A DNA stretch of 21,051 nt, taken from a virus. Taxonomy: Duplodnaviria > Heunggongvirae > Uroviricota > Caudoviricetes. Under the pieces are notes generated by a model. The model saw nothing but the letters and a program-made list of their open reading frames with translations, made no database searches and was not told the DNA's origin. Shown here piece after piece: positions 1,767-19,700 of the stretch (positions are counted from its first letter, which is position 1; each line of letters opens with the position of its first letter). Where the stretch lies: the IMG/VR virus record IMGVR_UViG_2579779002_000005; one strand, 5' to 3'. A program made the position numbers and the translations under genes.

Positions 1767-2039
1767 ATGGACAATAACACCATTTCTCTACAGGAGTTGC
1801 TCGACAGCATTTCCAGGCTTCGGGAAGACGTGAATACCCTTACCGTCGCCTTCTCATATCTGGCATTCTCAATTCCAAGGGAACAGATGCAATCAACGCT
1901 GGCATCAATCCAGTTTGAATCATGCAATCCCAAATGGTCTCAGGAACAACAAGACTCTTTCAGGCGGCTTGCTGTATTACTGGATGAAAAATATGCTGGT
2001 AAAATTACCATTTCGGCGGACTCTTCAGAGAACCCGTAA
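1767..2039 (+). CDS. Hypothetical 90-aa protein encoded antisense within the lysis cassette
   Basis: Complete ORF with a GAGGA Shine-Dalgarno about 9 nt upstream of the ATG. It sits in the 343-bp gap between the YdfR-like and endolysin genes on the opposite strand, and its 3' end overlaps the YdfR-like ORF by 35 bp. No recognisable motifs. Confidence 0.3.
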   Translation: MDNNTISLQELLDSISRLREDVNTLTVAFSYLAFSIPREQMQSTLASIQFESCNPKWSQEQQDSFRRLAVLLDEKYAGKITISADSSENP

Positions 2040-2349
2040 TTATTCCCGGTAGTTTTCCTCTGTAGGTTATCAACACATCCTGCGCCTCTAAAATTACGGG
2101 GCGCTTTTCCGGCGACTGCTCATCCCCTTCACATAACCCGGCAGCAACATCCAGGAAGACCTGTCTGATGCTCCTTCTGGCTGCTGCCTCATAAAACTCC
2201 AGCGCGGCACCTTCAACACGGTCCAGCGAGATGTCCAGGTCAAAAATTTCACCGTCAAAGCGTTTTTTGTCCCGTAACGCTAAAGTTACCGTAACTTTAT
2301 TCTCAAAATTGCGGATCCCTTTCACAATCAGTTCATAGTTTTGAGTCAT
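2005..2349 (-). CDS. YdfR-like (DUF1327-type) lysis-cassette protein
   Basis: 114-aa ORF starting 5 bp after the holin stop. A protein of this size sits between holin and lysozyme in the E. coli Qin prophage (essQ-ydfR-rrrQ); the family assignment is from memory. Confidence 0.5.
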   Translation of the reverse strand: MTQNYELIVKGIRNFENKVTVTLALRDKKRFDGEIFDLDISLDRVEGAALEFYEAAARRSIRQVFLDVAAGLCEGDEQSPEKRPVILEAQDVLITYRGKLPGIITGSLKSPPKW

Positions 2350-4798: not shown

Positions 4799-4806
4799 GC
4801 CCACAA

Positions 4807-5044
4807 GAAAACCCCTCCGGAGAGGGGCTAAAGCCGCGTATCTGTATCATCATGCACATGGTGCCGGGTGCCTCCCGGTGAGTTCAGCCCGGTGCCACTA
4901 AACCCGCGTCATTCTCGTTTTGATAATCAGAGATTATACCGTCACCAGTCGCCCCTCCGCTCAGGGGGATTCACCATGCGAAATTTTTTTAACAAATGCC
5001 CAGTCTGACAGGCAACTGTCAACTTACTGAATTGTGAGCAACAT
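4807..5044. repeat. Copy 1 of an imperfect ~220-240 bp direct repeat (non-coding module)
   Basis: Shares with copy 2 the blocks cccctccggagaggggct, catggtgccgggtgcctcccggtga, gcccctccgc.cagggggattcaccatgc, ttttaacaaa and acagtcaac..ctgaattgtgag. Confidence 0.7.
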
Positions 5045-5292
5045 AGCATTTAACGGGGAACCTGTTTTCTGCAGTAAAAAGGCCCACCGGAGCGGATGGG
5101 CCTGGAAGGATAGCGGTCATGTGATGCCGGTTTCCCGGTAACTCAGCACCGGTATCTGAGTCAACGTTTTCTCTACTGGGTCATTTCCGATACGCCCTGC
5201 CTGCTGACAGGCTTTCATCACATCTGAAAATATAGCACCCTGACTGATACTGTAGTACCTAAGGTTCCAGAAACTGTGATGTATCCGGCACA

Positions 5293-5512
5293 GAAAAGCC
5301 CCTCCGGAGAGGGGCTGGAGAGTGGCGCTATGTGCCATTGCATGGTGCCGGGTGCCTCCCGGTGAATTCAGTACCAGCACCTGAATCCGCGATTATCCCA
5401 TATACCTACTCGCTGATTGCCCCTCCGCACAGGGGGATTCACCATGCCAGTTTCTTTTAACAAACTCCCCGCAAACCAGACAACAGTCAACCGCCTGAAT
5501 TGTGAGACATTT
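5293..5512. repeat. Copy 2 of the imperfect direct repeat
   Basis: Same conserved blocks as copy 1. On the minus strand its gcccctc tccg gaggggc hairpin is followed by TTTTCT, so it looks like a terminator. Confidence 0.7.
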
Positions 5513-5551: not shown

Positions 5552-5628
5552 TGGCGCGTTGTACTGGATTCGAACCAGTGACCGATTGCTTAGAAGGCAA
5601 TTGCTCTGTCCGGCTGAGCTAACAACGC
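5552..5628 (-). tRNA. tRNA-Arg (anticodon UCU)
   Basis: Minus-strand sequence folds as a cloverleaf: acceptor GCGTTGT/ACAACGC, D stem GCTC/GAGC, anticodon stem ATTGC/GCAAT with loop CTTCTAA, T arm ACTGG-TTCGAAT-CCAGT, encoded CCA. Confidence 0.85.
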
Positions 5629-5641
5629 AGGATACAGATAA

Positions 5642-5718
5642 TGGACCGCCTTCGGGGACCCGAACTCCGCGCAACCAGCTTCGAAGGCTGGCGCTCTTTC
5701 CTGATGAGCTAATGGCGG
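5642..5718 (-). tRNA. tRNA-Arg (anticodon UCG), slightly degenerate
   Basis: Cloverleaf with anticodon stem CCAGC/GCTGG and loop CTTCGAA. It has one acceptor mismatch (A6-A67), one T-stem mismatch and T-loop TTCGGGT (G at position 58). The anticodon loop is palindromic, so strand is assigned from the neighbouring tRNAs. Confidence 0.6.
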
Positions 5719-5725
5719 TATGTGA

Positions 5726-5801
5726 TGGTGGCCCTTGCTGGATTTGAACCAGCGACCTGGCGATTATGAGTCGCTCGCTCTCACCACTGAGCTAAAGGGC
5801 C
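5726..5801 (-). tRNA. tRNA-Ile2-like (anticodon CAU, ileX/ileZ-like; could be read as Met)
   Basis: Perfect acceptor GGCCCTT/AAGGGCC, D arm GCTC-AGTGGTGA-GAGC, anticodon loop CTCATAA, T arm GCTGG-TTCAAAT-CCAGC, CCA end. Closely resembles E. coli ileX as I recall it. Confidence 0.85.
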
Positions 5802-7474: not shown

Positions 7475-8296
7475 CTATCGCGTTACCCTCTTTAACTGCC
7501 GCTCCGCCCATGCCTCTTCAATGTCAAACCGAACCACCAACGTATCGTAAAAGCGTTTCACTGATTTTTTCCACGTATCAAGCGTGATAGCACTCGTCAC
7601 TTTGCGTATGGCATTAAATGCCTCCGTTGATGGTAGTCTTTCACAGCCACGACCACCACAACGCTGGCAGTCTCTGATAACAGGCATACCACGTTTTACC
7701 GACTCTTCACGATGAATGGCAACACCACGCCCACGGCAGTCTTTACAGGCAGTGGAAATCTCCCCCTTCCCTTTACATTCAGGACAAGAAACTTTCACCA
7801 CCTCCCGAATTTTTTTCCATTCTTCCCAGTAAGACGGATACACACCTTTCGTACACTTTGCCCATACTGGCGGCTTGCCATCCGGATACTGAACCTTGTT
7901 TGTAAAAACTTCGCCTTCAATAAATTTTTCCCCTCGGCAACAGGGGCACTGCTTTTTACTCGCTGCGCTGCGGGCATAATCCTCAAAAGCGTACGAAGCC
8001 ATAATGCGCATCACTACCGGTTTTATTTCTGCCGGAAGTTTTCTCAACGCCGCCACACGATCGCACCGACTGAGTGCATAATCTGCCAGTAATTCTGTTG
8101 CCCGCGCCCTGTCATTCATACTGATGCCCATTTTCCCCAGGAACGCAGAAAACCCCATCTCAGCCCGATTCTGTGTCATGCCCTGCGCGGCCATCACATC
8201 AGTGATACTCAGCGCATCTTTCGACGTTGAGGCCGATGCATCAGTCAGGCCGGGGGATTTTGGGGAGTAGTATTTCGGTAAATCTTCCAGTTTCAT
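7475..8296 (-). CDS. Putative late-gene antiterminator (Q-like) with four DnaJ-type CxxCxGxG zinc-finger repeats
   Basis: 273 aa containing CPCCRGEK, CPECKGKG, CKDCRGRG and CQRCGGRG. Its start overlaps the rusA stop (ATGA), and it occupies the Q position of the DUF1364-DUF968-rusA-Q order. Confidence 0.5.
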   Translation of the reverse strand: MKLEDLPKYYSPKSPGLTDASASTSKDALSITDVMAAQGMTQNRAEMGFSAFLGKMGISMNDRARATELLADYALSRCDRVAALRKLPAEIKPVVMRIMASYAFEDYARSAASKKQCPCCRGEKFIEGEVFTNKVQYPDGKPPVWAKCTKGVYPSYWEEWKKIREVVKVSCPECKGKGEISTACKDCRGRGVAIHREESVKRGMPVIRDCQRCGGRGCERLPSTEAFNAIRKVTSAITLDTWKKSVKRFYDTLVVRFDIEEAWAERQLKRVTR

Positions 8297-8673
8297 TTTT
8301 TGACCTGCTCTTCATGCATTATGGGGTAAATCTTCACCCCCAGACGTCCACCAGATACTGGCTGACCACGAACGATATTGATTTCATCAAACTGCTCATC
8401 GTCCATTAGCAACCCCGCATGCGTCAGCGCATCCAGCGGCGCTTTCAGAATATTGTCCAGATCACGGCGGCGCTTATCCGGTGGTTCTGCAATAATTTTT
8501 ATTGCCAACCTTCCGGACAGGCTTAATTTCAGCCGCTGCTGGCGAACAATAAGCGCCACTGCCCGGCGATAACGCTCCCCGGCTTTTGATACAAAATATG
8601 TGCTGCCACGACGACGCCAGTAAGTGTTCACCGTTGGCGGGTAAGGCAAAACAAATTCTATGCGTTCAGTCAT
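8293..8673 (-). CDS. rusA: Holliday junction resolvase RusA
   Basis: 126 aa; RRRDLDN and HAGLLMDDEQ match the RusA catalytic aspartate region; typical lambdoid position just upstream of Q. Confidence 0.85.
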   Translation of the reverse strand: MTERIEFVLPYPPTVNTYWRRRGSTYFVSKAGERYRRAVALIVRQQRLKLSLSGRLAIKIIAEPPDKRRRDLDNILKAPLDALTHAGLLMDDEQFDEINIVRGQPVSGGRLGVKIYPIMHEEQVKK

Positions 8674-9732
8674 TTATGCTTTCCACTTCAGAACACCCGA
8701 ATTTCTCGCGTGCATTAAAAAACGAATCAGCAACAACAGCTGGCTGCCGTGTTTTTCTTCAAAATCTTTTACCCCGGCGTGTAGTTCGCTATGGCATTTA
8801 CGGCACAGCGGAATAACAAACAAATCATCAGCCTTTGTTCCCATCCCTCCCAGTCCATGACCAATGATGTGATGCGGATCATCTGCCTGATTGCCACACG
8901 TCATGCATTTCTGCGTTTTTACCCAGCGCGTGTATACAGGCATCTCTTCCCGTTGTGATTTCTGGCGCTGGAGATACTGAGCCGGTGACTCGGGATCAAC
9001 GGCAATGCTGACCACCGTCTTTTCCTGTGGTGGGTTCTGTTGCTGGTGGGCGTGAGGCAGCGGCGCAAGATTTTTTGTGCGCTGTTTCAGTATGCTGGTG
9101 GCGGTCTGCTCTCCCGGTATGATGTCGCTTTCACTGTACACAGAGCGAATTTTTTCCGCACGCAACCCCAGCGAACGACGTAATACCGCTTCCGGTAGCG
9201 CGTCCGCCACCTGATTGCGGACCGCCCACCAGGATAATTCAGCCAGAGATAATTCACGCTCCTGCGTACCGCTTATTGCGTGACCGATGACGTCAATCAT
9301 CCATGCTGACAGGTTTTGATGAGCAAGTTGCCCGAGTGATTCGGATGTCTGGTCACGCAGCTGGTTGTCGCAGTGCCAGCACAACACCATTGCGCCGGTA
9401 CCATAACGGTGAATGACGGTTTCGCTGTGATGATAATCGCCGTGTGGCCACTGGCAGGATTTAATATGGCGCAACAGCCAGTCAGACAATGCACCAGCAC
9501 CACCAGCAGCACGAATCACCCGTGCGTTACTGAAAAACGGCAGCAATGTTTTGTCTTCCACCAGCGGCTGGCGAGCGGCAGGAACGACCCCGGACGGCAG
9601 ATTACGCATGCTTTTTGGTTCCGGCTCCACCAGTATTCTGCCGTTATGGAATGCTGACATTGATTCACGGCCTGGCTTAACGATAACCAGACCGAGTTCC
9701 GGTACCAGAACAGATCGAAGTAATACCCGCAC
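8674..9732 (-). CDS. DUF968-like phage protein (YdfU-like) with a C-terminal HNH-like Cys/His motif
   Basis: 352-aa ORF (the first codon appears to be GTG; an ATG lies 24 codons in). C-terminal CMTCGNQADDPHHIIGHG...CRKCHSELH. Synteny with rusA as in Qin and DLP12 prophages. Confidence 0.55.
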   Translation of the reverse strand: MRVLLRSVLVPELGLVIVKPGRESMSAFHNGRILVEPEPKSMRNLPSGVVPAARQPLVEDKTLLPFFSNARVIRAAGGAGALSDWLLRHIKSCQWPHGDYHHSETVIHRYGTGAMVLCWHCDNQLRDQTSESLGQLAHQNLSAWMIDVIGHAISGTQERELSLAELSWWAVRNQVADALPEAVLRRSLGLRAEKIRSVYSESDIIPGEQTATSILKQRTKNLAPLPHAHQQQNPPQEKTVVSIAVDPESPAQYLQRQKSQREEMPVYTRWVKTQKCMTCGNQADDPHHIIGHGLGGMGTKADDLFVIPLCRKCHSELHAGVKDFEEKHGSQLLLLIRFLMHARNSGVLKWKA

Positions 9733-9733
9733 A

Positions 9734-10012
9734 TTACCTCCAGATCCGTTGCTGGAATGTGCGGGACGGACGCGCTGGCCGTTCTGAGTAAGGGAGCCTG
9801 ACGGAGATTATCCAGTGACGGTAGTCGAGGCTAAGGGCTTTTTTAACCTCGCATCCGCGCCCGCGGTAACACTGAATGAGCCATTCAGCCTGTTCTTCGG
9901 TGCAGGGGTCGTGCTGATACCAGTCAGATTTGAATGCATGAGAACGCCGCCCGTGCCTGCTGGCAGGGGCGGCAGAGTTATCCGAATTGTAAAATTTGGT
10001 ATCGTGCGCCAT
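9734..10012 (-). CDS. Small phage protein, DUF1364/YbcO-like by position
   Basis: 92-aa ORF abutting the DUF968-like gene. Family assignment rests on synteny and memory only. Confidence 0.4.
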   Translation of the reverse strand: MAHDTKFYNSDNSAAPASRHGRRSHAFKSDWYQHDPCTEEQAEWLIQCYRGRGCEVKKALSLDYRHWIISVRLPYSERPARPSRTFQQRIWR

Positions 10013-10279
10013 CTGTTTTCTCTGCTGGCGCAGCAGGTGCCAGTTGTTCAGGCTGACGTATGAAGTATAAATAAACTGGCTCCAGTGTAAAGCCCCACCT
10101 TAATGGAATAAAAACCAAACAACAGATTGCTGGGATAAAAATACAACGCTTATTATTAAAAGCGGTTAGATAAATTAAATTTTAATGTTATGCAAATCTG
10201 CCAGATTAGCATAATATTTCATTTGAAAACCGCTGAAATAACAATCTTATCGGGATTAATCATATTAAGGTGAGTAAAT

Positions 10280-10366
10280 ATGGAAAACAACAAATCTGCA
10301 CATTACGCTCCTTTTTTATCTGTAATACTTTTTGTATTTTGTTGTGTATGGGCGGTATTTTTATAA
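10280..10366 (+). CDS. 28-aa small hydrophobic peptide (MENNKSAHYAPFLSVILFVFCCVWAVFL)
   Basis: AAGGTGAG Shine-Dalgarno 8 nt upstream of the ATG; a single predicted transmembrane helix; followed by the 10384..10410 hairpin. Below the 60-aa cutoff of the ORF track. Convergent with the protease gene. Confidence 0.3.
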   Translation: MENNKSAHYAPFLSVILFVFCCVWAVFL

Positions 10367-10383
10367 AACACACCCACAAATAA

Positions 10384-10410
10384 ATCAAACCCGCTACAGC
10401 GGGTTTGATT
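10384..10410 (-). terminator. Rho-independent terminator ending the ATPase-protease operon (shared hairpin with the convergent small ORF)
   Basis: Minus strand aaacccgc tgta gcgggttt followed by GATTTATTTGT, 11 bp after the protease stop. Confidence 0.6.
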
Positions 10411-10420
10411 TATATAGTTG

Positions 10421-12685
10421 TTATACGGAAACTGGCACACGAGCAGGCAATGGATAGTGAGCCCAGTTATTAGCATTTAAAGCTCTTACGCCATCAGCAT
10501 AAACTTGTGTTTTTCCATCTAATGATTTTAAAGTTACTACAATAGTTACAGGTAAAGGCTCCATTAAGGCCGGTTCATTCGCTCTCAACGTTGTTTTAGC
10601 TTGAAGAGCCCAGTTACCCGAAGTAATTCCTTTATTAAATGCCTTGCGATGAATTTTTACTGGTGACCACTTTCCACCATGCTCAATTTGAGCTCTCTCA
10701 TATCCAGATTGACCGTTTTCTCCTTCCATAGGTACTTTTCCTTTTATAGTATTATTCTCAATTAAGCCAAAACTTAGCTCTACGTTCGCGCGAACATATT
10801 CACTGCCGGCATTAGGGTTCAGTGGTGGTGCATATGCAGCAGTAATTACAATCTCACCTTTAAATTTTCCATTTTGAATAAGTGCCGATGGTATGGGATA
10901 GTTTTCCTTTCTCCACCTCACCCCAGGAACCAAGAATGTTTGGAAAATCAGAGTAAACCTATCATCACTATCATATAAGGTCTCAATAACCTCATTAGGA
11001 ATTCCCGCTCCCAAATAGCGTCTTTCACTTGGCGAGTAATCAGGAGAAGATAATTGAGCGGAATGAATTAATAATGCTTTAATCAATGATGGTGAAACAT
11101 TAAAGTCTGAATTAGTGGCTATTCTCTGCCATGTATGCGCAGCTAAACTTGCCACAATTGGAGCAGCAAAACTAGTACCAAAATTAGAGCAAAGCCTATT
11201 ATCTGGCCCTACGACCTTTAAACTGCTTGCTCCTACATTCCAAGGTCTATGAACCCCACCGCCAGCATGGATTATATCTGGCTTTGGAGTAAATACAGGC
11301 CCAGGGCCACGACGAGTATATGGTGTCGGTGTTCCAATTTCACTTAAAGCATCATTAGCTTCCATATGAGAAACTGAACCAACTGTTAGTGCTCGGACTG
11401 ACTCTCCAGGAGAGGAAATTAAATCAGCACCTCCAAGCGGATCAGGATTTGGCCATGTACGTATAGGTTCATCTACATAATTACCTGCAGCAACTACAAA
11501 CAAAATACCAAATTTATCGCTGAGCCGATCTAACTCCATCGCAAAATCACTAAACATCTGCTCATTACATGGTCCGCCTCCCAAAGATAAATTCCAGACT
11601 TTTATATCTGGTCTTTTATTTACAGCATCTGCTAGCCTCAGAATTAAATCTGATATATAAGATCCATTTTCATCTAAAGCACAAACATCATGGATTTTAG
11701 ATTTTGTATCAGGAATCCATGGATGATTGTCATTTAAAAAATGAGCGCCTGATATCAATGAAGACACCATAGTCCCATGTTCATAACTCGTATCAGGAGG
11801 AATTACGTATGTTTCCCTACTCACTACCCAAGGAGTAATTGTTGCCGCGATGGGGCTTACCCCAGTGTCAAATACAGCAACAATGGGTAATTCTTCTGAT
11901 GGTACGGGAAAGCTATTTGTTTCAATGCCAACAGAATCACTTACACTAACCGGGAATGCTGAATATTTTGGTTCTGGAATTAACGTTCTTATACCCGGGT
12001 AATCAATGAGAATGTCTAATATATATCTATCATTTGGGGATAAATCCATTATCCTTAATAAGGGAAGACCACATTTTGGTCTAATCTCATCATATTTAAC
12101 TCCGTGTTGTTCTAATATAGAAATAACGTTTTCATAGTTGTTGTAAGTTGCATCTTCACCTGTGTACTCAAATAGTCGTACAAGGATGTTTGATGATTCA
12201 AACAAACCATCAGTGCCTCCTGGAACCTTCCTATTCTCATCCCAAGGTTCAATGCGCTCAATCGCGCTTAGATTAGCCAAAATCGCTTTAATATTCCGAT
12301 GTAAAATGACTGACTCTAATACGTCAAAACAGCCGGCATGAGCAGCAACCAACATTTCATCTATTTTGGCATGACCGGCATTTTGCAATCCAGCCTCTTG
12401 AGCAATTTTGTTCGGCCTATGCGTTTTGGCTATTCCCTGGTCTCTTAATTTGAAAACCAAAGTACCCAAGCTTCCAGGGTACTCTGAAAGTTTGGATTCT
12501 AAATAATGTTTACTGGTTGTTAAATTTCTTACTAGCCCTTGTCTATATTCGGCTGTTACATCAACCAATACCTTTGCCCCACCGCCAGCGTTTACTATTG
12601 CACCCAAGTCACTACTGGAAAAAGGGATTCTTAACATTGGGTTTGTAACTTTTGCGTTACTAAACTGTGTACCCCTTCTGCTCAT
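10421..12685 (-). CDS. Subtilisin-like serine protease (peptidase S8) with large N- and C-terminal extensions; probably cytoplasmic
   Basis: 754 aa. Catalytic residues in D-H-S order: VAVFD273TG, YEH303GT, oxyanion AAGN402Y, GTS505FAAP. No N-terminal signal peptide is apparent. The ORF overlaps the upstream ATPase gene by 26 bp. Confidence 0.85.
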   Translation of the reverse strand: MSRRGTQFSNAKVTNPMLRIPFSSSDLGAIVNAGGGAKVLVDVTAEYRQGLVRNLTTSKHYLESKLSEYPGSLGTLVFKLRDQGIAKTHRPNKIAQEAGLQNAGHAKIDEMLVAAHAGCFDVLESVILHRNIKAILANLSAIERIEPWDENRKVPGGTDGLFESSNILVRLFEYTGEDATYNNYENVISILEQHGVKYDEIRPKCGLPLLRIMDLSPNDRYILDILIDYPGIRTLIPEPKYSAFPVSVSDSVGIETNSFPVPSEELPIVAVFDTGVSPIAATITPWVVSRETYVIPPDTSYEHGTMVSSLISGAHFLNDNHPWIPDTKSKIHDVCALDENGSYISDLILRLADAVNKRPDIKVWNLSLGGGPCNEQMFSDFAMELDRLSDKFGILFVVAAGNYVDEPIRTWPNPDPLGGADLISSPGESVRALTVGSVSHMEANDALSEIGTPTPYTRRGPGPVFTPKPDIIHAGGGVHRPWNVGASSLKVVGPDNRLCSNFGTSFAAPIVASLAAHTWQRIATNSDFNVSPSLIKALLIHSAQLSSPDYSPSERRYLGAGIPNEVIETLYDSDDRFTLIFQTFLVPGVRWRKENYPIPSALIQNGKFKGEIVITAAYAPPLNPNAGSEYVRANVELSFGLIENNTIKGKVPMEGENGQSGYERAQIEHGGKWSPVKIHRKAFNKGITSGNWALQAKTTLRANEPALMEPLPVTIVVTLKSLDGKTQVYADGVRALNANNWAHYPLPARVPVSV

Positions 12686-13814
12686 ATGCTCCTGACTCCT
12701 TCAGAATGTTTGAAATTACTCTTGATGTAAGTTTGTACAAATTAGCAAGAACTCTGATAGAAAATAATTTTTTATCTTTAGAACGTAACCAACGAATTTC
12801 ATCTTCGTAAGTGCTTAAATTTACACCTTCCATAAGCGATTGCGCAAGATACAAACGCCTATACAATTTATGGTGATTTATCACACTTGCACCTTCAATA
12901 ACTGCATCCCTACGTGCATCCAAGCTCACCTGTTCAATTATTGCTCCGGATAATCCCTCCGATTTTCTTGATAAATCACTTAAATCTAGATCGCTACATA
13001 TCATATTCTTTAAACGATTTTTCCAAATTAACTCTCTCTGATGTATGTCAGGCAGAGGCATTGGAATTCTGAAGCTAAATCGCCTCCAGATTGCAGGATC
13101 CAGAAGTTGCTCATGGTTAGTTGAGGCAATAATTACCGTATCCTCTGATGCCGCATCCATATTCTGCAATAGTGAAATGACAACTCGCTGAAGCTCACCT
13201 ATATCTCTCTCATTACCTCTTGCTCCAGCTAAAGCATCAAATTCGTCTAAAAAAAGCACTGATGGCCTCTGCATTACATAATCGAAAACCTGTCTAAGAT
13301 TTTTGCTGGTTTGTCCCAATAAACTACTAATCAAAGTATCGCAACGCACTGTAAGAAGTGGAAAATCTAAGCGGGTAGCGATGTACTTAGATAACATAGT
13401 CTTACCTGTTCCTGGCTTTCCATACACGAGCATACGACTCGGCAATGCTGCATCAGCTTTAACAAACTCATCATAACGTTGAACATTAGTGATAAACTCT
13501 TCAACACGGGTACTGATTGCTGCAGGCAGAAAAATCTCTGAACTGTCTAATTTAGGATAACTGACATCAACAGTGTTGAGTCGACTATCAATATCTACCG
13601 GTAATGAGCCCAGAGATATCCCACCTCCAGCCCTTTGAGCTCCTGCCAACGCCTGGGGAGCTCTAAGCAACCTTTCTCTTATCATTCTGGCTTGCTTGAC
13701 CTCCCCTTTTTGTTCGAGCTTATCTGCCAGCAACCCAGCATAATTACTAGCCATCGAAGCATTTGCCTTTGTTGCACCTTCAATGATTTTTAACACTTCT
13801 GATAAATAATCCAT
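12660..13814 (-). CDS. AAA+ ATPase (classical AAA clade)
   Basis: 384 aa. Walker A GKPGTGKT (K138), Walker B VLFLDEFD, sensor-1 IIASTNH, arginine-finger region DPAIWRRF. GGGAG ribosome-binding site upstream of the ATG. Confidence 0.85.
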   Translation of the reverse strand: MDYLSEVLKIIEGATKANASMASNYAGLLADKLEQKGEVKQARMIRERLLRAPQALAGAQRAGGGISLGSLPVDIDSRLNTVDVSYPKLDSSEIFLPAAISTRVEEFITNVQRYDEFVKADAALPSRMLVYGKPGTGKTMLSKYIATRLDFPLLTVRCDTLISSLLGQTSKNLRQVFDYVMQRPSVLFLDEFDALAGARGNERDIGELQRVVISLLQNMDAASEDTVIIASTNHEQLLDPAIWRRFSFRIPMPLPDIHQRELIWKNRLKNMICSDLDLSDLSRKSEGLSGAIIEQVSLDARRDAVIEGASVINHHKLYRRLYLAQSLMEGVNLSTYEDEIRWLRSKDKKLFSIRVLANLYKLTSRVISNILKESGAYEQKGYTV

Positions 13815-14007
13815 TCAACACTCCCACAACAAAAAGCCACAGCAATCAAAAAATGAGCACACAGAATCAAAATACTCTCTAATCGTAACGCATTTTGAGA
13901 TTTTTGATACGTTTTTTTGGGATTATGTAACGCCAAATGGTCATTTTGTGTCAGAAAAATAAATCTTAGTACCGAGAATATGTAGCTTCCATCCTTCATC
14001 GTTCTAT

Positions 14008-14439
14008 TCATCCCTGATCTCCAAGCCTCTCTCGAAAACCATTCTGATAAAACGCCAGCACACGCTGCATAACTTCGCTCTTCCGGCACTCGCGACAGAT
14101 TATGTTCAGACGCCTGTCGTAGCGGCGTATTTCTCCGTCTGGTAATGACCAGATAAGGTCCGGATCAACCACAGATGGTTTCTTCACCTTTGCCCTGGAT
14201 AGTTTTTTGCGGGCATTTTGCCAGTCCTTACGAGCCTGTTCAGACGGGAATAACCCGTAACCAGAGTTGTATACATCGCCACTGGCAACCAGCTCTCTGG
14301 CGAGAACGCTCATCAGATATCTTGTCGCACCTGTCTTGGCTTCCAGTTGCCGTAACGTCTCGCGCCCACTCCGGCGTACTAGCTCAACAACCTGCCCTTT
14401 AATTTTTTCCCGCTCTTCTTGTGTAAATACTTTTGCCAT
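14008..14439 (-). CDS. Hypothetical phage protein with putative HTH (about 143 aa)
   Basis: Start chosen at MAKVF, which has a GGAGG Shine-Dalgarno 5-6 nt upstream. Contains TLRQLEAKTGATRYLMSVLAREL and a CRECRK motif. No family recognised. Confidence 0.5.
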   Translation of the reverse strand: MAKVFTQEEREKIKGQVVELVRRSGRETLRQLEAKTGATRYLMSVLARELVASGDVYNSGYGLFPSEQARKDWQNARKKLSRAKVKKPSVVDPDLIWSLPDGEIRRYDRRLNIICRECRKSEVMQRVLAFYQNGFRERLGDQG

Positions 14440-19295: not shown

Positions 19296-19700
19296 GGGTC
19301 AGGTGGAGTGCGTGCGCCGGACACGGGTGAACATCCGGCACTGACAGTTTACTGAAAGGATATGTCCCTGAAAAGTCAGGGCATAACGCGAAAGCGCACG
19401 GCGAAATTGGTCTCTCTGTACGGTGTCGTTAAATTTAGTTCGACCGTGCGCTTCCGGTTGTGGCAATCCGCGAAATGGTGCGGCGGTAAGTATGGCGGGG
19501 TTATTCCTTCCCCCGTTGAGGACACCGGGTTGTCAGGTTGACCATACGCTTAAGTGACAACCCCGCTGCAACGCCCTCTGTTATCAATTTTCTGGTGACG
19601 TTTGGCGGTATCAGTTTTACTCCGTGACTGCTCTGCCGCCCTTTTTAAAGTGAATTTTGTGATGTGGTGAATGCGGCTGAGCGCACGCGGAACAGTTAAA
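19296..19700. other. GC-rich structured non-coding region with nested hairpins and repeated GCGTGCGC / GCGCACG motifs in alternating orientation
   Basis: Hairpins ctccac..gtggag (about 19284..19308), ccgga..tccgg (19317..19340) and ccctga-aaag-tcaggg (19366..19381). CGTGCGC occurs at 19311 and 19445, and its complement GCGCACG at 19394 and 19681. The only long ORF here (19617..20222, minus) looks spurious. Confidence 0.3.

What the first reader, a model, noticed from the sequence alone, without database searches (positions are those of the whole stretch)
10421..13814. AT-rich two-gene insert: AAA+ ATPase plus cytoplasmic S8 subtilase, a candidate anti-phage module
Seen in sequence: two overlapping minus-strand genes (26-bp overlap, suggesting translational coupling). 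The upstream gene encodes a 384-aa AAA+ ATPase with intact Walker A, Walker B, sensor-1 and arginine-finger motifs. The downstream gene encodes a 754-aa S8 protease with an intact D273/H303/N402/S505 catalytic set. The pair has its own AT-rich upstream region and an intrinsic terminator, and looks clearly more AT-rich than the flanking phage genes (by eye, not computed). It interrupts a conserved lambdoid gene order (replication genes, then this insert, then DUF1364-DUF968-rusA-Q). Established knowledge: this nin-region neighbourhood is a known moron and defence hotspot in lambdoid prophages (hokD/relBE/rem next to ydfU in Qin). An ATPase plus S8 protease pair matches the architecture I recall for the IetAS family reported in large defence-island screens, whose mechanism is still uncharacterised. 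Inference: a prophage-borne, ATP-dependent protease-based defence or abortive-infection module; whether it belongs to IetAS or is a distinct ATPase-protease system cannot be decided from sequence alone.
Basis: partly seen in the sequence, partly recalled or inferred. Interest (0 to 1): 0.85.

Follow-up and report, generated by a model that had tools for sequence, protein, structure and literature searches.

The report
Prophage-borne IetAS anti-phage gene pair
The two genes are a standard copy of IetAS, a known bacterial anti-phage system made of an ATPase and a protease, carried in a variable slot of an E. coli prophage; databases already name it, so the finding is correct but not new.

Summary
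Two minus-strand genes, ietA (12660..13814, 384 aa) and ietS (10421..12685, 754 aa), overlap by 26 bp. GC is 0.39 against 0.50 for the rest of the window.

Both proteins match the PADLOC IetA and IetS profiles over their full length. Both pass NCBI's curated equivalog cut-offs (IteA 526.6/510, IteS 1039.4/900). RefSeq already annotates the identical DNA as iteA/iteS in 78 of 5,426 complete E. coli genomes.

The same cassette from strain ECOR52 appears to have been cloned and phage-tested: one published cloning primer matches the window exactly, the other matches a phage that carries the cassette.

The slot between the DUF977 gene and the DUF968 gene is a real variable hotspot. Related prophages hold hokD, rem plus hokD, a QueH fragment, or almost nothing there.

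Two corrections. The 92-aa neighbour is not detectably DUF1364. The AT-rich DNA and terminator core downstream of ietS are shared prophage backbone, also found behind hokD.

The mechanism is still unpublished. The best inference is a toxin-antitoxin-like abortive-infection system. Verdict: already known, low interest.

The parts
12660..13814 (-). ietA (NCBI spelling iteA): 384-aa classic-clade AAA+ ATPase, the antitoxin or regulator partner. It has an N-terminal four-helix region (1-62), an AAA core (about 98-255), a lid (257-306) and extra C-terminal helices (314-372).
10421..12685 (-). ietS (iteS): 754-aa cytoplasmic S8 subtilase, the toxin or effector. The catalytic domain spans about 268-545. 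It is preceded by two beta-alpha-beta-beta-alpha-beta modules (about 74-147 and 167-237) and followed by a beta-sandwich domain (about 576-720).
12660..12685 (-). 26-bp overlap between the ietA stop and the ietS start. The ietS Shine-Dalgarno sequences (AAGGAG at 12701..12696 and AGGAG at 12693..12689) lie just upstream, inside ietA. This arrangement is consistent with translational coupling.
   Evidence: Sequence. An overlapping arrangement is conserved in Klebsiella, Pseudomonas and Burkholderia. IetA lies directly upstream of IetS in 27 of 27 informative IMG/VR loci.
13815..14007 (-). AT-rich intergenic region upstream of ietA, with the ietA Shine-Dalgarno GGGAG at 13825..13821. A 37-nt block at 13918..13882 (AAAAAAACGTATCAAAAATCTCAAAATGCGTTACGAT) is conserved with the 74%-identical Klebsiella cassette. 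It is a candidate promoter or operator; this is unproven.
   Evidence: Sequence. Alignment A3. No sigma-70 consensus match was found here. The forward cloning primer for ECOR52 ietAS matches 14007..13985 exactly, so this region was included in the tested clone.
10380..10413 (-). Terminator-like hairpin: 15-bp stem, 4-nt loop, followed by a U-rich tract. It starts 7 nt after the ietS stop codon and sits at the junction between cassette and backbone.
   Evidence: dG -26 kcal/mol, z -6.6. The core AACCCGC...GCGGGTT is homologous to the hairpin downstream of hokD in prophages that lack ietAS.
10030..10405 (-). AT-rich non-coding prophage backbone that is not specific to ietAS. It includes a conserved Shine-Dalgarno plus 12-codon mini-ORF (10303..10265, MCRFVVFHIYSP) and a promoter-like site TTTACA-16-TATACT (10091..10064).
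   Evidence: 10072..10420 is found in 743 of 5,426 E. coli genomes against 78 for the cassette. In those genomes it lies between hokD and the nin genes. Alignment A4. No Rfam family reaches its threshold.
14008..14439 (-). DUF977 gene, the left flank and the last gene of the replication-side module. Homology to ietAS-less prophages stops at about 14028-14080, so the recombination junction lies in its 3' end.
   Evidence: Pfam DUF977. blastn boundaries.
8674..10012 (-). Right flank: a 92-aa ORF (9734..10012; phrog_1212, no Pfam hit) and the DUF968/HNH gene (8674..9732). RusA (8293..8673) and antiterminator Q (7475..8296) follow.

Best explanation
This is a canonical two-gene IetAS defence system (NCBI spelling IteA/IteS). 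It is carried as a cassette of about 3.6 kb of foreign composition in the variable slot between the replication genes and the nin/Q genes of a lambdoid E. coli prophage integrated next to ompW.

Likely mechanism, inferred from family literature rather than shown for this locus:
1. IetS is a cytoplasmic subtilisin-type protease that is toxic when unrestrained.
2. IetA is a classic-clade AAA+ protein-remodelling ATPase, made from the same overlapping and probably translationally coupled transcript. It keeps IetS harmless in uninfected lysogens.
3. A protein or activity of an infecting phage upsets this balance.
4. IetS then cleaves cellular or phage proteins, and the infected cell stops growing or dies before releasing progeny (abortive infection).
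5. This protects the lysogen population, and with it the prophage.

The IetS model shows prodomain-like modules ahead of the catalytic domain. This suggests that the restraint acts on a zymogen-like state.

Confidence is about 0.97 for the identity as IetAS and about 0.6 for the mechanism; the score given is for the mechanism.
For: Identity (shown here):
- Full-length PADLOC IetA and IetS hits.
- NCBIfam equivalogs above their curated cut-offs.
- RefSeq annotation of identical DNA as iteA/iteS in 78 genomes.
- The exact proteins are named IteA/IteS in public databases.
- Catalytic and ATPase residues are invariant.
- The pair is conserved with an overlap across Klebsiella, Pseudomonas and Burkholderia, and in 27 of 27 informative viral loci.

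Hotspot (shown here): the slot holds alternative cargo in related prophages, and the Klebsiella cassette sits in the equivalent slot.

Same cassette tested: the ECOR52 cloning primers match the window and phage 683R6.

Mechanism (from the literature):
- The protease is the toxin and the ATPase the antitoxin, in pTiC58 IetAS and SGI1 SgiAT (PMC5006074; PMC13069673).
- The B. cereus ietAS shows an abortive-infection phenotype and becomes toxic on expression of phage SPbeta yosG (bioRxiv 10.1101/2022.08.27.505566).
- Protease activity is needed for defence, and an ietA mutant could not be cloned (PMC13069673).

Structure:
- The IetA fold matches protein unfoldases and remodellers.
- The IetS model aligns with pro-forms of subtilases beyond the catalytic domain.
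Against:
- The abortive-infection and trigger data come from a distant Bacillus homologue.
- The toxin-antitoxin data come from Agrobacterium and Salmonella homologues (SgiT is only 36% identical to pTiC58 IetS).
- The ECOR52 clone was among the single systems reported to give limited protection on their own against a 29-phage panel. Its clearest effect was synergy with Zorya II against T3.
- SgiAT gave no post-segregational killing from its own promoter.
- No sigma-70 consensus promoter was found upstream of ietA, so expression in the repressed prophage is not established.
- The substrates of IetS are unknown, and several papers up to 2026 state that the mechanism is unknown.
Confidence: 0.6

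Rival explanations
1. IetA and IetS form a bona fide ATP-dependent protease, like FtsH, Lon or PAN-proteasome. IetA recognises and unfolds a specific phage protein and hands it to IetS for degradation. This would give direct, non-suicidal immunity.
For: The closest sequence and fold relatives of IetA are the ATPase modules of proteolytic machines and unfoldases: PAN, FtsH and Cdc48. The genes overlap, consistent with translational coupling and fixed stoichiometry. Both activities are reported as needed for defence in family members.
Against: The pore-loop-1 position of IetA is S-L-L-G-Q with no aromatic residue, and this is invariant in 30 homologues. That is atypical for a processive translocase. 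Subtilases are open monomeric enzymes, not gated chambers. In homologues the protease alone is toxic and the ATPase neutralises it. The Bacillus system collapses cultures at high multiplicity of infection.
Confidence: 0.2
2. The pair serves mainly as an addiction or stabilisation module for the prophage, through post-segregational killing or exclusion of competing elements. Any anti-phage effect would be incidental.
For: IetAS was first described as a plasmid-stability and incompatibility toxin-antitoxin system on pTiC58, and SgiAT stabilises SGI1. The slot otherwise holds hokD, another toxin-antitoxin-type locus. The ECOR52 clone was among the single systems with limited protection on their own.
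Against: SgiAT showed no post-segregational killing from its own promoter. Family members give measurable phage defence with specific phage triggers. An integrated prophage gains little from post-segregational killing. The cassette is also found chromosomally outside mobile elements, in Burkholderia.
Confidence: 0.12
3. The cassette is a silent passenger in this prophage. It lies in the repressed early-right operon with no promoter of its own, so it is expressed only during the prophage's own lytic growth, or not at all.
For: No sigma-70 consensus site was found in 13815..14007. It is co-oriented with the pR-side operon. One genome carries an IS3 insertion in the cassette (H16).
Against: The ORFs are intact and at least 99% identical in 78 genomes. 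IetA is 100% identical in 18 viral loci. A conserved 37-nt block upstream of ietA is shared with a cassette that is only about 70% identical in DNA. The consensus scan is crude.
Confidence: 0.08

Closest known systems
IetAS / IteAS anti-phage system (Gao et al. 2020, Science 369:1077; PADLOC IetA/IetS; NCBIfam NF042959/NF042956)
   Same: Two-gene operon with the AAA+ ATPase upstream of the S8 protease. Full-length profile matches above the curated cut-offs. Intact catalytic sets. The identical DNA is already annotated iteA/iteS.
   Different: Nothing of substance; this is a member. I could not read Gao et al., so I cannot say whether their tested allele is this one.
ECOR52 ietAS tested by Wu et al. 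(bioRxiv 10.1101/2022.08.21.504612)
   Same: The forward cloning primer matches window 14007..13985 exactly. The reverse primer matches exactly at the cassette edge in phage vB_EcoS-683R6, whose cassette is 99.2% identical to the window. This is very probably the same cassette.
   Different: The nin-side flank differs: the reverse primer is absent from the window. The ECOR52 sequence itself was not available. In that study the clone was driven by pBAD.
IetA/IetS of Agrobacterium pTiC58 (Yamamoto et al. 2009) and SgiA/SgiT of Salmonella Genomic Island 1 (PMC5006074)
   Same: Same AAA-ATPase plus subtilase pair. The ATPase is the antitoxin and the protease the toxin. This is the source of the toxin-antitoxin model applied here.
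   Different: They sit on a plasmid or an integrative element, not a prophage. They were studied for stability, not phage defence. Sequence identity to the window proteins was not measured here.
ietHAS and the SNF2-linked ietAS of E. coli E24377A (PMC13069673)
   Same: Homologous ATPase-protease core.
   Different: These carry an extra SNF2 helicase gene and, in E24377A, an adjacent methyltransferase and helicase. Their proteins are of different lengths (326 and 795 aa). The window has none of these partners.
Bacillus cereus m1293 ietAS (Stokar-Avihail et al., bioRxiv 10.1101/2022.08.27.505566)
   Same: Same named system. It provides the abortive-infection phenotype and a phage trigger (SPbeta yosG).
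   Different: A distant homologue in a Gram-positive host. Neither the trigger nor the phenotype has been shown for the E. coli cassette.
CBASS-associated Trip13/HORMA and other AAA+-regulated defence effectors
   Different: There is no HORMA protein, no cyclase and no nucleotide signal. The effector here is a protease.

Membership tests
IetAS (IteAS) defence system | AAA+ ATPase that matches the IetA family profile over its full length | tested here: met
   PADLOC PDLC02196, 474 bits, residues 1-374 of 384. NCBIfam equivalog NF042959, 526.6 bits against a cut-off of 510.
IetAS (IteAS) defence system | S8 subtilase that matches the IetS family profile over its full length, including the N- and C-terminal extensions | tested here: met
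   PADLOC PDLC02197, 995 bits, residues 12-753 of 754. NCBIfam equivalog NF042956, 1039.4 bits against a cut-off of 900.
IetAS (IteAS) defence system | The two genes are adjacent, on the same strand, with the ATPase first, forming one operon | tested here: met
   26-bp overlap. The same order is seen in 27 of 27 informative viral loci and in three other genera.
IetAS (IteAS) defence system | Intact ATPase motifs (Walker A/B, sensor-1, Arg finger) and protease motifs (Asp/His/Asn/Ser) | tested here: met
   K138, D190/E191, N233, R244/R245 in IetA; D273, H303, N402, S505 in IetS. All are invariant across homologues.
IetAS (IteAS) defence system | Confers resistance to phage infection | not testable with these tools
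   Literature only. The ECOR52 cassette, linked to this one by primer matches, was among the single systems with limited activity on their own, and it synergised with Zorya II against T3.
IetAS/SgiAT toxin-antitoxin pair | The protease is toxic alone and is neutralised by the ATPase | not testable with these tools
   Shown for SGI1 SgiAT and cited for pTiC58. Not tested for this allele.
ietHAS (helicase-containing variant) | An SNF2-family helicase gene in the same operon | tested here: not met
   There is no such gene between DUF977 and the 92-aa ORF. Contrast E24377A.
Secreted or classical pro-subtilisins | A signal peptide and a cleaved I9 propeptide | tested here: inconclusive

The most novel reading that the evidence does not exclude
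IetS is an intracellular zymogen that keeps two uncleaved prodomain-like modules. IetA is a classic-clade AAA+ whose pore loop has lost its aromatic residue (invariant L-L-G). It acts not as a feeder but as an ATP-dependent clamp or resetter holding IetS in the inhibited state. A phage protein that blocks IetA then lets IetS process itself and kill the cell. This would be a new logic for regulating a subtilase, and it would give the first mechanism for IetAS.
Probability: 0.2. Interest if true: 0.55.

Novelty: already known. Interest (0 to 1): 0.15.

Why it matters
For genome annotation it matters little, because PADLOC, DefenseFinder-type tools and NCBI's PGAP pipeline already name this pair.

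Its residual value has two parts:
- It is a clean natural example of a defence cassette swapped into the hokD/rem slot of lambdoid prophages, with junctions mapped to within a few tens of bases.
- IetAS as a family still lacks a published mechanism, substrates or a solved structure. This well-conserved E. coli allele sits in a genetically tractable prophage and is a convenient model for that work.

Tried and rejected
- Gao et al. 2020 and Yamamoto et al. 2009 are not held in the library. I could not check which allele Gao tested or read the original toxin-antitoxin data, so those points rest on secondary citations.
- Searching papers for the RefSeq protein accessions found nothing.
- Searching for an IetAS structural or mechanistic paper found none.
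- The PDB holds no IetS or IetA structure. The best IetS hits are generic subtilases at E about 1e-5. IetA hits only generic p97/Cdc48-type AAA domains.
- The sigma-70 scan found no site upstream of ietA.
- Rfam found nothing at threshold in either flanking non-coding region; the sub-threshold hits are driven by the terminator hairpin.
- The ECOR52 reverse primer is absent from the window. This is explained by a different nin-side flank.
- I first took the insert to be 10030..14043 from blastn boundaries. I revised the ietS-side edge to about 10410 after finding that 10072..10405 is ten times more common than the cassette and lies behind hokD elsewhere.
- Rejected: a distinct, non-IetAS ATPase-protease system.
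- Rejected: a secreted protease. No evidence for it; all family context is cytoplasmic toxin-antitoxin or defence.
- Rejected: a decaying pseudogene pair.
Full report
**1.

The window has two minus-strand ORFs at exactly the stated coordinates: 12660..13814 (384 aa) and 10421..12685 (754 aa). They overlap by 26 bp. The ietS start codon is preceded by AAGGAG and AGGAG inside the 3' end of ietA.

The long N-terminus of IetS is conserved in homologues: M1, N15 and P16. Overlaps of 26, 44 and 53 bp recur in Klebsiella, Pseudomonas and Burkholderia. The overlap is therefore a family feature, not an artefact of ORF calling.

- IetA: Walker A K138, Walker B D190/E191, sensor-1 N233, R244/R245.
- IetS: D273, H303, N402, S505.

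All are invariant across 30 IetA and 34 IetS homologues that share only 50-86% identity with the window proteins. Pfam gives AAA (PF00004) and Peptidase_S8 (PF00082).

The composition claim, made by eye, holds when computed. GC is 0.392 for 10013..14007 against 0.504 elsewhere. GC3 is 0.27-0.33 against 0.44-0.62 in ten neighbouring genes.

A strong hairpin follows the ietS stop codon: 15 bp, dG -26 kcal/mol, z -6.6.

**2. What it is**

It can.
- Both proteins match the PADLOC IetA and IetS profiles end to end, at 474 and 995 bits.
- Both exceed the curated whole-protein cut-offs of NCBI's equivalog models: NF042959 at 526.6/510 and NF042956 at 1039.4/900.
- The 4.1-kb stretch occurs at 99% identity or more in 78 of 5,426 complete E. 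coli genomes, where PGAP already labels the genes iteA and iteS.
- The exact protein sequences carry those names in public databases, and the IetA sequence is seen on at least 1,000 contigs.
- Both proteins also have full-length PHROG families of unknown function.
- 29 IMG/VR viral contigs carry relatives. An IetA gene lies directly upstream in all 27 loci where the upstream DNA is present.
- A sequenced phage, vB_EcoS-683R6, carries the cassette at 99.2% identity.

**3. The same cassette has probably been tested already**

Wu et al. cloned ietAS from E. coli ECOR52. The gene-specific part of their forward primer matches window 14007..13985 exactly. The reverse primer is absent from the window. 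It does match exactly at the edge of the cassette in phage 683R6, which has a different nin-side neighbour.

So the tested clone is very probably this cassette, including its native upstream region. In that study all single systems except Gabija gave limited protection against 29 phages, and ietAS was one of those single systems. It improved Zorya II's defence against T3.

**4. Context and boundaries**

RefSeq annotation of a near-identical locus places the pair in a lambdoid prophage next to ompW (L001). On one side is the replication module: an O-like HTH protein, the DnaC-like YdaV, DUF1627 and DUF977. On the other side is the nin/late-control module: a 92-aa ORF, DUF968, RusA and Q.

The slot is a true hotspot. 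An artificial empty-site query found related prophages with several different contents there:
- about 260 bp between the flanking genes;
- a QueH pseudogene fragment;
- rem plus hokD, as in Qin;
- about 5 kb of small genes including hokD.

A Klebsiella cassette that is 74% identical in IetS sits in the equivalent slot of a different lambdoid prophage. Pseudomonas and Burkholderia copies lie in unrelated chromosomal contexts.

On the replication side, homology to ietAS-less prophages resumes at 14028-14080, inside the 3' end of the DUF977 gene.

On the other side I first placed the edge at about 10029. However, the non-coding stretch 10072..10420 is present in 743 genomes, ten times more than the cassette. 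In those genomes it lies just downstream of hokD. Alignment shows that homology begins at the terminator hairpin itself, whose core AACCCGC...GCGGGTT is shared.

The ietAS-specific DNA is therefore about 10410..14043, roughly 3.6 kb. The terminator counted as the pair's own is a junction or backbone element. The low-GC tract extends beyond the cassette into shared backbone.

**5. How it most likely works**

Nothing about function could be tested here, so this section is inference from family literature plus structure prediction.

Literature evidence:
- In pTiC58 IetAS and SGI1 SgiAT the protease is a toxin and the ATPase its antitoxin.
- A Bacillus cereus ietAS behaves as an abortive-infection system and becomes toxic when phage SPbeta yosG is expressed.
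- In the helicase-containing ietHAS variant, protease activity is required for defence, and an ietA mutant could not be constructed.

Structure prediction:
- The pore-loop-1 position of IetA reads S-L-L-G-Q with no aromatic residue, and this is invariant across the family.
- The IetS model (pLDDT 83, pTM 0.87) has two beta-alpha-beta-beta-alpha-beta modules ahead of the S8 domain and a beta-sandwich after it.

My best reading, at confidence about 0.6 for the mechanism and about 0.97 for the identity, is as follows. IetA holds a zymogen-like IetS in check by ATP-dependent remodelling. A phage factor disturbs this. IetS then cleaves cellular or phage proteins, and the infection aborts.

Rivals:
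- A true ATP-dependent protease that degrades a phage protein (0.2).
- A mainly addictive or stabilising role (0.12).
- A silent passenger expressed only from the phage early operon (0.08). This rival is kept alive by the absence of a sigma-70 consensus match upstream of ietA. It is weakened by a 37-nt upstream block conserved with the divergent Klebsiella cassette.

**6. Comparison and novelty**

This is a member of IetAS in every respect testable by sequence. It is the plain two-gene form, unlike the SNF2-linked subtype found in E. coli E24377A and studied as ietHAS.

The system, its presence in prophages and its name in annotation pipelines are all established. Wu et al. also note ietAS within prophages. 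The verdict is therefore "already known".

What remains open is the family's mechanism. Papers up to 2026 call it unknown, and the PDB copy holds no IetA or IetS structure. That open question is not something this window adds to.

**7.

- The 92-aa ORF 9734..10012 has no Pfam match, so the DUF1364 label is unsupported. A real DUF1364 gene occurs in a different nin-region type.
- The insert is shorter on the ietS side than drawn.
- The terminator core is shared with hokD loci.
- No consensus promoter was found.

Interest 0.15.

Noticed in passing
window 10072..10405 (-): An AT-rich, unannotated non-coding segment of about 330 bp is present in 743 of 5,426 E. coli genomes, always in lambdoid prophages. 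There it lies between hokD (here ietS) and the nin genes. It is far more widespread than the ietAS cassette.
   Followed up: partly
window 10303..10265 (-), with SD AAGGAG at 10313..10308: A 12-codon mini-ORF (MCRFVVFHIYSP) with a strong Shine-Dalgarno sits in the most conserved part of that segment. It is nearly invariant in the three prophage types aligned, with one Pro-to-Leu change at the last codon. It could be a leader peptide or a chance ORF. No Rfam family matches.
   Followed up: partly
window 10091..10064 (-): A promoter-like site, TTTACA-16-TATACT (10 of 12 matches), lies about 50 nt upstream of the 92-aa ORF. It is conserved in ietAS-less prophages. It might drive the nin-side genes independently of pR.
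   Followed up: no
window 13918..13882 (-): A 37-nt block upstream of ietA (AAAAAAACGTATCAAAAATCTCAAAATGCGTTACGAT) is almost identical in the Klebsiella cassette, whose DNA is otherwise about 70% identical. It is a candidate promoter or operator for autoregulation.
   Followed up: partly
window 4799..5008 (-) and 5286..5476 (-): Two copies of the sRNA family STnc100 (161 and 136 bits, gathering score 47) lie between the DUF6645 gene and the tRNA cluster.
   Followed up: no
window 5552..5801 (-): A prophage tRNA cluster downstream of Q: Arg-UCU, Arg-UCG and a CAU-anticodon tRNA. PGAP calls the last one Ile and ARAGORN calls it Met; it is probably Ile2.
   Followed up: no
window 19590..19641 (+): DicF antisense sRNA (76.7 bits) lies just upstream of dicB and ydfD on the immunity-left side of the prophage.
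   Followed up: no
IetA residues 163-170 (window about 13328..13305, -): The pore-loop-1 position reads S-S-L-L-G-Q-T-S. S163, S164, L166, G167, Q168, T169 and S170 are invariant in 30 homologues, L165 is nearly so, and there is no aromatic residue. This is unusual for a substrate-threading classic AAA+ and resembles the p97 D1 ring; the p97 comparison is from memory.
   Followed up: partly
L012 (E. coli E24377A NC_009801.1 3330029..3340792): E. coli has a second, unrelated-looking ietAS subtype embedded in a five-gene block: SNF2 protein, AAA (326 aa), S8 (795 aa), DNA methyltransferase and DEAD/DEAH helicase. PGAP does not name its ATPase and protease IteA/IteS.
   Followed up: partly
H16, E. 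coli F2_81 NZ_CP043542.1 2591177..2596561: One genome has an IS3-family element inserted within the ietAS cassette, a natural knockout.
   Followed up: no
L003 (E. coli NT1F25) 1896..2333: In one related prophage the same slot holds a truncated epoxyqueuosine reductase (QueH) pseudogene. This suggests that queuosine-pathway cargo once sat in this hotspot.
   Followed up: no
L015-L036 (IMG/VR loci): Across 18 E. coli-type viral loci IetA is 100% identical while IetS varies from 99.2 to 99.9%. The protease accumulates changes slightly faster than the ATPase.
   Followed up: no
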